Assembly (NCBI RefSeq): GCF_013167455.1
Contig: NZ_CP038328.1
Reading direction: 5' to 3' (one strand)
DNA: 64,000 nucleotides
Origin: Escherichia coli O157:H7
GTDB lineage: Bacteria; Pseudomonadota; Gammaproteobacteria; Enterobacterales; Enterobacteriaceae
A program made the position numbers. Of the stretch, positions 39,001 through 42,000 are shown piece after piece (the stretch's first letter is position 1; every line of letters starts with the position of its first letter).

Positions 39001-42000
39001 AATTTAGCCTGAAGCTCCTGACGCACCAGTTGCATAAAGGCTGGCTGAGGAGAGATCACCCCACCGCGCGGCTGAACCCCCAGCGGACGCGCACTCAACA
39101 TGTCATAGAGTTCTTGATCAATAATCTGTTGCTGTTGCAGCAGACGCAGTACCAGATTACGTCGCTCCAGCGCCAGTTTCGGGTTACGCCACGGGTTGTA
39201 GATGGACGCTCCTTTCACCATACCGACTAACAGCGCCTGCTGATCGAGGCTCAATTCTTCTACCGGGCGACCAAAGTAATACAAGCTCGCCAGCGGGAAG
39301 CCGCGGATTTCGTTGTCGCCGCTCTGACCGAGATACACCTCGTTCATATACAGCTCAAGAATACGGTCTTTGCTGTAACGCGCGTCCATGATCAGCGCCA
39401 TGTAGGCTTCATTCGCTTTACGCCAATAAGAGCGCTCGCTGGAGAGGAACAGGTTTTTCACCAGCTGTTGCGTCAGCGTACTCGCCCCCTGCACCGTGCG
39501 ACCTGCGGTCAGGTTTGCCAGCACCGCACGTCCGATGGAGTAGAGACTGATTCCATCATGCTCGTAGAAATGGCGGTCTTCTGTCGCCAGCAAAGTATCC
39601 ACCAGCAAATCCGGGAAACCACTGCGCGGCACAAACAAACGCTGCTCACCGTTTGGTGAGGAGATCATGGTGATCAGACGCGGATCAAGACGGAAGAAAC
39701 CGAACTGACGGTTGTTCTCCATATTGACGATGGTCGCCAGATGATCGCCATCAAAGGTCAGACGCGCGCGCACCTGCCCTTCTTTACTGTCCGGGAAATC
39801 AAACGGACGGCGAATCATCTCAATGCTGTTGGCCTGCACGGTAAATTCGCCAGGACGGGTCATTTTCGACACCTGACGATACTGTGTTGCCTCCAGCAGC
39901 TTCACCATCTCGTTCTTGCTGATGGTCATGTCTGGCTCAAGGTTGACCATTCGACCATAAACTGCCGCAGGCAGTTGCCAGACCTTGCCATCAATACGGC
40001 TACGAATTTTTTGATCGAGATAAACGCCGTAAATGGCGATCAGCACGGCAAAAACGATAGCCAGTTTTAACAGCAGCCATAGCCAGCCGCGTTTGCCACG
40101 AGGCTTACGCCCTTTGCCTTTGCCCTTACCTTTGCGCGGCATCGGTTCTTCATCCTCATAGTCATCATAATCGTCGTAATCATCGTCATCTTCGTAACGA
40201 CGACGGCTTACCTTTTGTTTGACCGGACGCGTCGGTTTCCCTTTGCGTCCAATTGGCTCGCGGTCATTCCCGGCCATGCTTTTTCTCCGCAATATTCAGG
40301 CGCAAAAGCCCGATTTTCTGTTCTTCTGTTACAAGACAGAAGAAGATATCTCTCAAAATTTGAGCTCGATCGGTCCCCTCTCCCTTAAGGGAGAGGGTTA
40401 GGGTGAGGGTGAACGTGCGCGCTGGTGCCCTCACCCCGGCCCTCTCCCACAGGGAGAGGGAGAAAACCAACCTTACGAATACTTTTTCGTCCGTCGCGTC
40501 GGTGCCGTGTTTGCCGGGTCGTCCGGCCAGACGTGTTTGGGATAACGCCCTTTCATCTCCTTTTGCACCTCACGATACGCCCCTTTCCAGAAGGCCCCCA
40601 AATCACGCGTGATTTGCAGCGGCCTTTGGGCGGGTGAAAGCAATTCCAGCACCAGCGGCACGCGCCCCTGGGCGATCGTCGGATTAGTGGCCTCACCAAA
40701 CATCTCCTGCATTCTCACCGCCAGCGCGGGCGGGTTATCTTCATGATAACGAATGGCGATCCGGCTTCCCGTCGGCACAGTGTAATGCGCAGGCAATTCA
40801 CTATCCAGACGTTGCTGCATTCCCCAATCAAGTAATCCGCGTAGTGCCTGATAAATGTCGAGTGATTTCAGGCCGCGTAGTGAATGTACACCGGCCATAT
40901 GTGGCAGCAGCCACGTTTCCAGCGTCGCCAACAAACTTTCATCATCAACCGCTGGCCAGTCATATTCTGGCAACCACTTTCCGGCGCATAACAAACGCAA
41001 GCGTAGCTGTTCCGCTTCCGCCGTCCAGTTGAGCACGCTTAAACCTTTATCACGGATGCCGTTAAGCATCGCCTGATGCAACTCGTCTTCTGACGGTTTC
41101 GCCAACGGCTGCACTTTCACCGTCAACTGACCGATTTGCAGCCGACGCCAGGCTTTCAGCGTACCTTGCGCGTCATCCCATTCCACGGTGTCAGATTGCT
41201 GCACCAGCTGCGGACAGCGTTGTACTAATTCATCAATATCGACCGGTAACGCCAGTAAAATCCGCGCATCCGGCGAGGCGCTGCCCTGCAATAATAACGG
41301 CGCGATCAACCATTCGTGGCGACTTAGCGCGTCGTCGGCATCAAGCATCGCCCCCATGCCGTTTGCCAGTTGATAGCGTCCATCTTGCCCACGGCGGCGA
41401 GCAATGCGATCGGCAAACGCCCCGGCAAGTAGCGGCGCGATAAGCGAACTGTCTGCCTCACCGCCGCGTACGTTTAAGCGTTTTAACAGTTGCTGACTAC
41501 GTTGCTGCCAGGCTGGTTGATTGCGCGAAAACGCCACGCCCAGGTCACTATTGCCCATCCGTGGCGGCTCTTCGAGAATGGCGGCAATTTTTGCCGCGGT
41601 AGCAGCTTCGTCGTCGCTCTTTGCGCTAACCAGCATTGCCGCTAAACGCGGATCGTTACCCAGCGCTGCCATTTTTTGCCCTTGCGCACTAAGCCGTTCA
41701 CCGTCCAGCGCCCCCAGCATTTGTAACAGACGTTTCGCGGCCAGTAGATTCACCGTTGGCGGTTGATCCAGCCAGCTCATCTGCGCCGGATCGCTGCATC
41801 CCCATTGCAGTAATTCCATCAGCAAACCGGAAAGATCGCTTTGTAAGATCTCCGGTTCACTTTGCGCGGTAGCGCGTTCTGCTTGTTCTTTGGCGATTAA
41901 ATGCAGGCAGATACCCGGCTCCAGACGCCCGGCGCGCCCGGCACGCTGCGTCATCGACGCCTGACTGATTCGCTGAGTAATCAACCGCGTAAGCCCTGTT

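What the first reader, a model, noticed from the sequence alone, without database searches (positions are those of the whole stretch)
40376..40460. Three tandem perfect palindromes between hrpB and mrcB
Two copies of CCCTCTCCC-N3/4-GGGAGAGGG flank GGGTGAGGG-N18-CCCTCACCC, with a further hairpin (TTCTTCTGT...ACAGAAGAA) at 40321-40345 in the mrcB leader. The arms of all three can cross-pair, allowing alternative folds. The cluster does not match REP or ERIC consensus and sits between a helicase terminator and the PBP1b promoter/5' UTR.
Basis: seen in the sequence. Interest (0 to 1): 0.4.

Follow-up and report, generated by a model that had tools for sequence, protein, structure and literature searches.

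The report
Known BoxC repeat pair after hrpB
The "three palindromes" between hrpB and mrcB are two back-to-back copies of a small repeat (BoxC, also called PIT, TMECO or HPGQ) that is scattered through the E. coli genome, already catalogued at this locus, and absent from at least 27% of complete E. coli genomes, so it is ordinary and dispensable.

Summary
The sequence is as described: CCCTCTCCC-TTAA-GGGAGAGGG (40376-40397), GGGTGAGGG-N18-CCCTCACCC (40401-40436) and CCCTCTCCC-ACA-GGGAGAGGG (40440-40460), none expected by chance.

The parse is wrong, though. The real units are two three-block repeats, CCCTCTCCC-loop-GGGAGAGGG-linker-GGGTGAGGG. One is on the + strand (40376-40409, linker TTA, type A). 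The other is on the - strand (40460-40428, linker CCG, type B). They lie tail to tail around an 18-nt spacer, and the middle "palindrome" is a by-product of that arrangement.

This is the BoxC / PIT / TMECO / HPGQ repeat family. The orthologous K-12 locus is listed in Holder 2015 (Table 1, rows 1-2) and Kaplan 2016 (HPGQ 5 and 6).

It is not needed for mrcB:
- 1469 of 5426 complete E. coli genomes, plus E. albertii and E. whittamii, have an empty site.
- Other strains carry 12-nt or 63-nt slippage deletions.
- 47 genomes carry the pair in the opposite orientation.
- Other genera have a single unit, a REP-like element or nothing at this spot.

Published tests, cited second-hand, found no promoter or terminator activity and no triplex in vivo.

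The hairpin at 40321-40344 is a separate feature. It is conserved across Enterobacteriaceae with compensatory base changes and may deserve its own study.

The parts
40428..40460 (-). BoxC/TMECO type B unit (hrpB-sense): CCCTCTCCC-TGT-GGGAGAGGG-CCG-GGGTGAGGG
   Evidence: Exact match to the published TMECO pattern. It is orthologous to Table 1 row 1 of PMC4666352 (MG1655 164547-164580) and to HPGQ no. 5 of PMC5100583.
40376..40409 (+). BoxC/TMECO type A unit (antisense to hrpB): CCCTCTCCC-TTAA-GGGAGAGGG-TTA-GGGTGAGGG
   Evidence: Exact match to the published pattern. It is orthologous to Table 1 row 2 of PMC4666352 (MG1655 164631-164597), where K-12 has loop TTGA, and to HPGQ no. 6.
40410..40427 (.). 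18-nt spacer between the two units (hrpB-sense: CACCAGCGCGCACGTTCA)
   Evidence: It resembles the 3' flank of single type B units at xynR-argF and ilvC-ppiC in K-12 (CACCAACGCGCAGC, CATCAGCGCGCAC).
40461..40472 (-). 5' flank of the type B unit, GGTTGGTTTTCT, running up to the hrpB stop codon
   Evidence: The T-rich flank (GTTTTCT / CTTTTCC) is shared by most K-12 type B copies. This stretch is absent from the empty allele.
40362..40375 (+). 5' flank of the type A unit, GAGCTCGATCGGTC
   Evidence: The flank ~GCaCgaaCGGTC is shared by K-12 type A copies. It marks the edge of the indel relative to empty alleles.
40362..40472 (.). Whole composite repeat footprint (B unit, spacer, inverted A unit, plus flanks)
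   Evidence: This is what the empty allele of B2 strains and sister species lacks; the empty allele has 10 nt of different sequence here. On the hrpB-sense strand it folds as one long hairpin: RNA -75.4 kcal/mol, z = -8.1. The + strand folded as DNA gives -31.9 kcal/mol, z = -4.9.
40321..40344 (-). Separate feature: conserved stem-loop in front of mrcB (TTCTTCTGT-CTTGTA-ACAGAAGAA)
   Evidence: Present in all 68 distinct Enterobacteriaceae sequences aligned. 95% of cells are paired, 6 of 10 pairs change on both sides, and there are 85 compensatory cells across the structure against 16 +/- 8 in shuffles. It is retained in alleles that lack BoxC.
40264..40470 (-). 68-codon ORF (TTG start) that reads through the repeat pair and the mrcB leader; judged not to be a gene
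   Evidence: It is annotated as 'hypothetical protein' only in E. coli and Shigella. The repeat-derived N-terminal part is absent from empty alleles. Five of 68 relatives have 1-nt indels in the leader part.

Best explanation
The feature is a tail-to-tail pair of BoxC repeats (also called PIT elements, TMECO or HPGQ). A type B unit lies on the hrpB-sense strand and a type A unit on the opposite strand, each with its own conserved 5' flank, separated by an 18-nt spacer. The pair starts directly after the hrpB stop codon.

Shown here: it is one member of a dispersed intergenic repeat family. It is a polymorphic addition to this spacer. It lies upstream of the conserved mrcB leader rather than inside it.

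Inferred: it has no locus-specific regulatory job. Its consequences are by-products of its structure. In any transcript that reads past the hrpB stop codon it would fold into a very stable ~100-nt hairpin, which could act as a REP-like barrier to 3' exonucleases. In DNA, its direct and inverted 9-mers promote slippage and recombination, which produces the deletion, collapse and inversion alleles seen among strains.
For: Identity:
- The published pattern CCCTCNCCC-N3-6-GGGNGAGGG-N3-GGGNGAGGG hits exactly twice in the window, once per strand, with 0 expected.
- The orthologous K-12 sequence differs at 3 positions across the aligned spacer. It is listed as TMECO 1 and 2 and as HPGQ 5 and 6.
- Linkers TTA and CCG define types A and B. 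Inverted A+B pairs are a described configuration.

Multi-copy:
- BLAST of the 97-nt element finds a median of 8 and up to 21 places per E. coli genome.
- 20 K-12 copies at 13 loci share the blocks and the type-specific flanks.

Dispensable and unstable:
- 1469 of 5426 genomes carry the exact empty junction.
- E. albertii, E. whittamii and a cryptic Escherichia clade are also empty.
- There is a 12-nt deletion allele (O145) and a 63-nt deletion between the two direct CCCTCTCCC blocks that leaves a single hairpin. Several other strains also have the collapsed form.
- 47 genomes carry the pair in the opposite orientation.
- The mrcB leader is conserved in every allele and genus examined.
- In some Enterobacter and relatives, a hairpin followed by a T run (terminator-like by eye, not scanned) follows the BoxC unit.

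Literature, as cited in PMC4666352: PIT elements showed no promoter or terminator activity. Triplex forms in vitro only and the in vivo DMS footprint was negative. TMECO loci are more variable than control loci.
Against: - No experiment addresses this locus directly.
- The RNA hairpin is extremely stable and sits 12 nt after a stop codon. REP-like elements occupy the same place in Citrobacter and Salmonella. A 3'-end stabilising or read-through-limiting role is therefore not excluded.
- Strong sequence conservation among copies, including a shared G-A mismatch in 'A mm' units, could reflect selection or a binding partner rather than recent copying.
- RNA polymerase sigma-70 holoenzyme binds somewhere in this spacer in vitro (genomic SELEX), although the promoter predicted there lies downstream of the pair.
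- A multicopy clone of an ORF from this spacer, probably the 68-codon one overlapping the pair, lowered csgA expression 18-fold.
Confidence: 0.85

Rival explanations
1. The pair is a cis-regulatory element of mrcB (promoter modulator or 5' UTR switch). Alternative folds would tune PBP1b expression.
For: - It lies 85 nt upstream of the mrcB ATG.
- Alternative folds exist.
- A sigma-70 holoenzyme site maps to this spacer in vitro.
Against: - It is absent from at least 27% of E. coli genomes and from sister species, while the leader from ~40360 to the ATG stays conserved.
- It occurs in either orientation, as a single unit, or is replaced by REP-like elements in other genera.
- The only published promoter guess (TTGAGA-17-TGTAAC, 40356-40328) lies downstream of it.
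- PIT elements had no promoter or terminator activity.
- There is no bias of family members toward 5' regions or gene classes.
Confidence: 0.05
2. It acts as the hrpB 3'-end structure: a transcription terminator or a REP-like barrier against 3' exonucleases that also insulates mrcB from read-through.
For: - It starts directly after the hrpB stop codon.
- The RNA hairpin is -75.4 kcal/mol with z = -8.1.
- In other genera the same position holds REP-like palindromes or other hairpins.
- Many K-12 copies sit just after stop codons or between convergent genes.
Against: - There is no U tract after the stem and no terminator-like hit.
- PIT elements had no terminator activity.
- Some Enterobacter and relatives carry an additional hairpin plus T run (terminator-like by eye) right after the BoxC unit.
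- Empty alleles and 80-nt spacers manage without any such hairpin.
- Units occur in both orientations and also inside operons and in a divergent spacer.
Confidence: 0.2
3. It is a non-B DNA switch (intrastrand triplex or G-quadruplex versus hairpin versus duplex) with a programmed role in replication, recombination or transcription.
For: - Oligonucleotides form very stable triplex-like or G4-like structures in vitro.
- Loci carrying the repeat are unusually variable.
Against: - The double-stranded form behaves as ordinary duplex, and the in vivo DMS footprint showed no protection.
- Variability is equally explained by ordinary slippage between short direct and inverted repeats. The deletion end-points seen here fall exactly on the repeated 9-mers.
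- Allowing G-quadruplexes did not change the predicted RNA fold.
Confidence: 0.1
4. The spacer encodes a 68-aa protein (40470-40264, minus strand), and the repeats are just its coding sequence.
For: - The ORF is open in O157 and K-12.
- It is annotated as a hypothetical protein in many E. coli genomes.
- A 2024 paper ascribes a curli-repressing phenotype to a 68-aa 'D8B36_18480' protein between hrpB and mrcB.
Against: - The first ~34 codons are a literal translation of the repeat pair and are absent from empty alleles.
- The start codon is TTG.
- The protein cluster is confined to E. coli and Shigella.
- The leader-derived part suffers 1-nt indels in 5 of 68 relatives.
- The same repeats elsewhere are intergenic.
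Confidence: 0.03

Closest known systems
BoxC repeats = PIT elements (Hoyne et al. 2000; Hoyne & Maher 2002) = TMECO (Holder et al. 2015, PMC4666352) = HPGQ HPG1/HPG2 (Kaplan et al. 2016, PMC5100583)
   Same: - Three-block motif.
- Type A/B linkers.
- Inverted A+B pairing.
- Intergenic location.
- Multi-copy.
- Strain-to-strain instability.
The orthologous K-12 locus is explicitly in both catalogues.
   Different: Nothing essential. The O157 copy differs from K-12 by one base in the A-unit loop (TTAA rather than TTGA), one in the spacer and one in the A-unit flank. The spacer here (18 nt) is shorter than in three other K-12 pairs (27-28 nt).
REP / BIME elements of enterobacteria
   Same: - Short, GC-rich, imperfectly palindromic intergenic repeats, often just after stop codons.
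- REP-like elements occupy this same hrpB-mrcB position in Citrobacter and Salmonella.
- REP elements act as mRNA 3' stabilisers (general knowledge, not tested here).
   Different: There is no sequence relationship: the REP core CCGGAT / ATCCGG is absent from this spacer. No dedicated transposase (RAYT) or binding protein is known for BoxC.
MITEs (for example ERIC/IRU, RSA)
   Same: - Non-coding and dispersed.
- Terminal inverted symmetry in the composite form.
- Presence/absence polymorphism.
- Found in either orientation at one site.
   Different: No target-site duplication was found. Filled and empty alleles differ by replacement of short stretches at three loci. No parent element or transposase is known, and no mobility has been demonstrated.

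Membership tests
BoxC / PIT / TMECO / HPGQ repeat | Sequence pattern 5'-CCCTCNCCC-N3-6-GGGNGAGGG-N3-GGGNGAGGG (Holder et al. 2015) | tested here: met
   Two exact matches, 40376-40409 (+) and 40428-40460 (-), with 0.00 expected by chance. The pattern text is quoted.
BoxC / PIT / TMECO / HPGQ repeat | Second loop TTA (type A) or CCG (type B) | tested here: met
   The + strand unit has TTA and the - strand unit has CCG.
BoxC / PIT / TMECO / HPGQ repeat | Many dispersed copies per genome, always intergenic | tested here: met
   Median 8 and up to 21 BLAST places per E. coli genome. 20 K-12 copies at 13 loci were retrieved, all between annotated genes. The paper lists 23 in MG1655.
BoxC / PIT / TMECO / HPGQ repeat | Pairs consist of one type A and one type B unit on opposite strands | tested here: met
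   The window pair is B(-)/A(+). The same holds for four other K-12 pairs and is stated in the paper.
BoxC / PIT / TMECO / HPGQ repeat | This particular locus is listed as a family member | tested here: met
   TMECO 1 and 2 are at MG1655 164547-164580 and 164631-164597. HPGQ 5 and 6 lie between hrpB and mrcB. The window-to-K-12 alignment is.
BoxC / PIT / TMECO / HPGQ repeat | ~56-bp BoxC unit as annotated in the original GenBank record (51-59 bp) | tested here: inconclusive
   Conserved flanks extend each unit to about 50-55 nt. At ilvC-ppiC the filled allele has 55 nt where the empty allele has 14 nt, which fits the 51-59 bp quoted. The original BoxC annotation and consensus were not available to compare. 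The equation BoxC = TMECO rests on Holder et al..
BoxC / PIT / TMECO / HPGQ repeat | Forms an intrastrand triplex or G-quadruplex | not testable with these tools
   Only published in vitro CD/NMR data exist, and the in vivo footprint was negative.
REP / BIME | REP consensus core (GCCGGATG...CATCCGGC-type palindrome; recalled from memory) | tested here: not met
   No CCGGAT or ATCCGG occurs in 40278-40472 (read directly). Such cores are visible at the same position in Citrobacter and Salmonella loci.
Intrinsic (Rho-independent) terminator | GC-rich stem-loop followed directly by a U tract | tested here: not met
   No terminator-like site on either strand of 40150-40600. The sequence after the stem is GAGCUCAAAUUUU.
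MITE | Target-site duplication and clean insertion relative to empty sites | tested here: not met
   Filled and empty alleles at hrpB-mrcB, tauD-hemB and ilvC-ppiC differ by replacement of short stretches, with no evident duplication.
Rfam RNA families | Match above the gathering score | tested here: not met
   Only sub-threshold hairpin look-alikes (miRNA precursors, at most 26 bits against gathering scores of 60-105) in 39800-41000.

The most novel reading that the evidence does not exclude
BoxC units, with their type-specific flanks, are (or recently were) mobilised by an unidentified trans-acting recombinase that prefers gene 3' ends. On this reading the hrpB-mrcB spacer is a hot spot that has been hit or flipped independently. 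That would explain three things: both orientations at one site within E. coli, the same element in Lelliottia and Enterobacter, and copy numbers that range from 0 in Salmonella to 143 in Enterobacter asburiae. It would parallel the REP/RAYT story for a second enterobacterial repeat family.
Probability: 0.2. Interest if true: 0.5.

Novelty: already known. Interest (0 to 1): 0.12.

Why it matters
For the finding as stated, very little. It re-discovers a catalogued repeat at a catalogued locus.

Practical value:
- Annotators should not call the 68-aa ORF that runs through the repeat. A published curli phenotype attributed to a 68-aa protein from this spacer, probably that ORF, may need re-examination.
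- The natural allele series (full, flipped, collapsed, empty) is a ready-made experiment for testing whether BoxC pairs do anything to neighbouring genes.

The covarying stem-loop in front of mrcB is separate and, as far as the searches here went, undescribed. It may be the more useful lead for PBP1b regulation.

Tried and rejected
- **Rfam scan of 39800-41000 at E <= 10:** only sub-threshold miRNA-like hairpin hits, so there is no family.
- **Sigma-70 promoter and intrinsic terminator scan of 40150-40600:** nothing found.
- **G-quadruplex-aware RNA folding:** no change to the fold.
- **Target-site duplications or clean insertion boundaries, comparing filled and empty alleles at three loci:** none found. 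The alleles differ by replacement, so classical cut-and-paste insertion is not supported.
- **Counting the collapsed-hairpin allele by BLAST:** confounded, because the pieces from full alleles are joined. Only its existence in several strains can be stated.
- **A conserved upstream ORF or 68-aa protein:** rejected, because of absence from empty alleles, frameshifting indels in relatives, and a distribution limited to E. coli and Shigella.
- **Phage association:** 5 of 50,697 records, effectively none.
- **Plasmids:** 345 of 72,556 records. Many of the best hits are megabase-sized records, so there is no clear link to mobile replicons.
- **Literature search for an mrcB leader, sRNA or TSS study:** nothing beyond a genomic-SELEX promoter guess.
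Full report
**Observation**

The window is E. coli O157:H7-like, 100% identical to many O157 genomes across 40200-40560. hrpB (stop codon 40475-40473) and mrcB (ATG 40277-40275) both run on the minus strand, leaving a 195-nt spacer at 40278-40472.

- CCCTCTCCC-TTAA-GGGAGAGGG at 40376-40397.
- GGGTGAGGG (40401-40409), 18 nt, CCCTCACCC (40428-40436).
- CCCTCTCCC-ACA-GGGAGAGGG at 40440-40460.

The hairpin motif occurs twice in 64 kb against zero expected. The arms do cross-pair (pairs I1 and I5).

**What the unit really is**

On the hrpB-sense strand the spacer reads: TAA GGTTGGTTTTCT CCCTCTCCC TGT GGGAGAGGG CCG GGGTGAGGG caccagcgcgcacgttca CCCTCACCC TAA CCCTCTCCC TTAA GGGAGAGGG GACCGATCGAGCTC AAATTTTGAGAG.

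This is two copies of a three-block motif (C-block, loop, G-block, 3-nt linker, G-block) in inverted orientation. The middle "palindrome" exists only because the two third blocks face each other.

The published TMECO pattern CCCTCNCCC-N3-6-GGGNGAGGG-N3-GGGNGAGGG matches exactly twice: 40376-40409 (+) and 40428-40460 (-). Linkers TTA and CCG make these type A and type B.

**It is already catalogued**

- Holder et al. 2015 (PMC4666352) list MG1655 164547-164580 (sense, type B) and 164631-164597 (antisense, type A) as TMECO 1 and 2. The K-12 sequence aligns with the window with three substitutions in the spacer.
- The same paper equates TMECO with the BoxC repeats of the 1990s and with the PIT elements of Hoyne et al. 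2000 and Hoyne & Maher 2002.
- Kaplan et al. 2016 (PMC5100583) rediscovered the repeats as conserved putative G-quadruplexes. Their table has HPGQ 5 and 6 between hrpB and mrcB.
- Rfam has no corresponding family.

**Family properties checked here**

- BLAST of the 97-nt element finds a median of 8 and up to 21 places per complete E. coli genome.
- I fetched 13 K-12 loci and extracted 20 units. All are intergenic.
- Conservation extends beyond the three blocks. Type A units share a 5' flank ~GCaCgaaCGGTC and a 3' flank GAACAGGCC. Most type B units share a T-rich 5' flank (GTTTTCT) and a 3' flank CAYCAGCGCGCAC or TAAWTWTTCGC.
- The repeat footprint in the window is therefore about 40362-40472. 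This agrees with the ~56-bp size annotated for BoxC and with the 55-nt versus 14-nt difference at ilvC-ppiC.
- Three other K-12 pairs share a homologous 27-28-nt spacer.
- Phages essentially lack the repeat (5 of 50,697 records). It is rare on plasmids (345 of 72,556 records, many of them megabase-sized).

**The locus is polymorphic, and the repeat is dispensable**

Among 5426 complete E. coli genomes, 3535 cover at least 80% of a 361-nt query spanning the spacer. Alignment of representative strains shows these states:
- The full pair (O157, K-12).
- An O145 allele with a 12-nt deletion that fuses CCCTCACCC and CCCTCTCCC.
- A 63-nt deletion between the two direct CCCTCTCCC blocks, leaving one hairpin. 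This is the "palindrome effect" described by Holder et al.. Several other strains also have the collapsed form.
- An empty site (NU14 and other B2-type strains): TATTCGTGAAGACCAAAGCAAATTTGAGAG. The exact empty junction is in 1469 genomes.

The empty state is also found in E. albertii, E. whittamii and a cryptic Escherichia lineage, so it is probably ancestral for Escherichia.

A fifth state has the pair in the opposite orientation (A sense, B antisense, flanks flipped too). It occurs in "E. coli E69" and 47 complete E. coli genomes.

Alignment A6 shows that the window's plus strand is colinear with the hrpB-sense strand of three other elements: the flipped E. coli allele, a Lelliottia pair at the same site, and the single antisense type B unit that many Enterobacter carry there. 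Leclercia and Huaxiibacter carry a similar single unit.

Other variants at this position:
- Citrobacter and Salmonella have REP-like palindromes.
- Some Citrobacter and other genera have only an ~80-nt spacer with nothing inserted.
- One metagenome-assembled genome has three tandem copies, and another genome has five units.
- In several Enterobacter and relatives the BoxC unit is followed by a hairpin and a T run that looks like an intrinsic terminator. This was judged by eye and not scanned.

In every case the sequence from A(A/T)TTGAGAG to the mrcB ATG is conserved.

**Structure**

As hrpB-sense RNA, the 126 nt around the pair fold into one nested, interrupted hairpin of -75.4 kcal/mol (z = -8.1). 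The outer C-block pairs with the last G-block, and so on inward. The three-local-hairpin alternative is about 16 kcal/mol worse. The + strand folded as DNA gives the same topology (-31.9 kcal/mol, z = -4.9). No U tract follows, and the consensus scans find no terminator or sigma-70 promoter.

**Mechanism**

- Shown: the identity, the multi-copy nature, the dispensability, and the fact that deletion end-points coincide with the repeated 9-mers.
- From the literature, second-hand via Holder et al.: PIT elements have no promoter or terminator activity and no in vivo effect on replication. Triplex or G4 structures form in vitro only, and the in vivo DMS footprint was negative. TMECO loci are hypervariable.
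- Inferred: the pair has no locus-specific function. It is a structurally unstable passenger that adds a large hairpin to any hrpB read-through transcript. I keep a REP-like 3' stabiliser or insulator role as the main rival (0.2), because this position repeatedly hosts palindromic repeats in different genera.
- Not supported: regulation of mrcB, because natural alleles without the repeat keep an intact leader. The only published promoter guess (TTGAGA-17-TGTAAC, from genomic SELEX) lies downstream of the pair.

**How the repeat spreads remains open**

Both orientations occur at one site, and the flanks travel with the units. That suggests either independent insertions or whole-element inversion.

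Against classical insertion, filled and empty alleles at hrpB-mrcB, tauD-hemB and ilvC-ppiC differ by replacement of short stretches without target-site duplication.

The reverse complement of the K-12 left flank (AGAAAACCAACC) loosely resembles the empty-site sequence AGACCAAAGC. This hints at an in-situ inversion that took a few target bases along, but the evidence is weak.

**The second hairpin is a different thing**

The stem-loop at 40321-40344 belongs to an ~80-nt block that is conserved in all 68 distinct Enterobacteriaceae sequences aligned. Its covariation statistics are:
- 95% of cells are paired.
- 6 of 10 pairs show changes on both sides. Examples are TTCTTCTGT/ACAGAAGAA in E. coli, TTCTTTCAC/GTGAAAGAA in Enterobacter and TTCTTCCTCC/GGGGGAAGAA in Leclercia.
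- Across the structure there are 85 compensatory cells against 16 +/- 8 in shuffles (0 of 500 shuffles reach the observed value).
- Slid controls pair in only about 50% of cells.

Frequent U-G pairs on the mrcB-sense strand argue for an RNA structure on that strand. A second small stem (40297-40312) is nearly invariant, so it is uninformative. No Rfam family covers the region, and I found no paper on it. The published promoter guess would start transcription inside the stem, and its -10 (TGTAAC) is not conserved in other genera. The true start site is therefore unknown.

**A spurious ORF**

A 68-codon ORF (40470-40264, TTG start) reads through the repeat pair and the leader. It is annotated as a hypothetical protein in many E. 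coli and Shigella genomes.

It is probably the "D8B36_18480" 68-aa protein located between mrcB and hrpB, whose multicopy clone reduced csgA expression 18-fold (PMC10869245). This match rests only on the length and location.

Its N-terminal half is a translation of the repeats and is missing from empty alleles. Five of 68 relatives carry 1-nt indels in the leader part. I judge it not to be a gene. If the ORF match is right, the reported phenotype would then reflect the cloned DNA or RNA rather than a protein.

**Verdict**

The feature is an already-known BoxC/TMECO pair at an already-listed locus, so interest is low.

Noticed in passing
window 40278-40360, minus strand (stem-loop 40321-40344; second stem 40297-40312; SD GGAG 40288-40285): The ~80 nt upstream of the mrcB ATG are conserved across Enterobacteriaceae. 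The first stem-loop shows strong compensatory variation: 6 of 10 pairs change on both sides, no shuffle reaches the observed value (0 of 500), and U-G pairs occur on the mrcB-sense strand. No Rfam family or paper was found. It may be an undescribed cis-acting RNA element of mrcB.
   Followed up: partly
window 40264-40470, minus strand: A 68-codon ORF reads through the BoxC pair and the mrcB leader and is annotated as 'hypothetical protein' in many E. coli and Shigella genomes. It is probably the 'D8B36_18480' protein of PMC10869245, whose multicopy clone repressed csgA 18-fold. The ORF looks spurious, so that phenotype may come from the DNA or RNA.
   Followed up: partly
L020:3686-3800 and 47 complete E. 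coli genomes (e.g. NZ_CP033096.1); L049:3742-3866: The same hrpB-mrcB site carries the BoxC pair in the opposite orientation, flanks included, in a minority of E. coli and in Lelliottia. The K-12/O157 allele is the reverse complement of these. Neither inversion nor independent insertion could be established.
   Followed up: partly
L024-L045 (Citrobacter, Salmonella), just after the hrpB stop codon: REP-like palindromes (GCCGGATAAGGCG...CATCCGGC) occupy the same position that BoxC occupies in E. coli and Enterobacter. The hrpB 3' flank is therefore a recurrent landing site for different palindromic repeat families.
   Followed up: no
L092:3751-4130; L079:3751-4260: One metagenome-assembled Enterobacteriaceae genome has three tandem copies of a ~96-nt module (type B unit plus a terminator-like hairpin). 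Another genome has five BoxC units in a 509-nt hrpB-mrcB spacer.
   Followed up: no
L098, L101 vs L011 (tauD-hemB); L099: At tauD-hemB the BoxC-free allele has a completely different 39-nt spacer with its own hairpin (ATGCCGGGTTGGATAACCCGGCAT). Strain JNE120393 has an extra 51 nt inserted within the type A flank, which duplicates GGACGGTC / GGACAGTC.
   Followed up: partly
window 40351-40363, minus strand (CTCAAATTTTGAG): A small palindrome is formed at the junction between the type A flank and the conserved leader start. It exists only in alleles with the K-12-type insertion.
   Followed up: no
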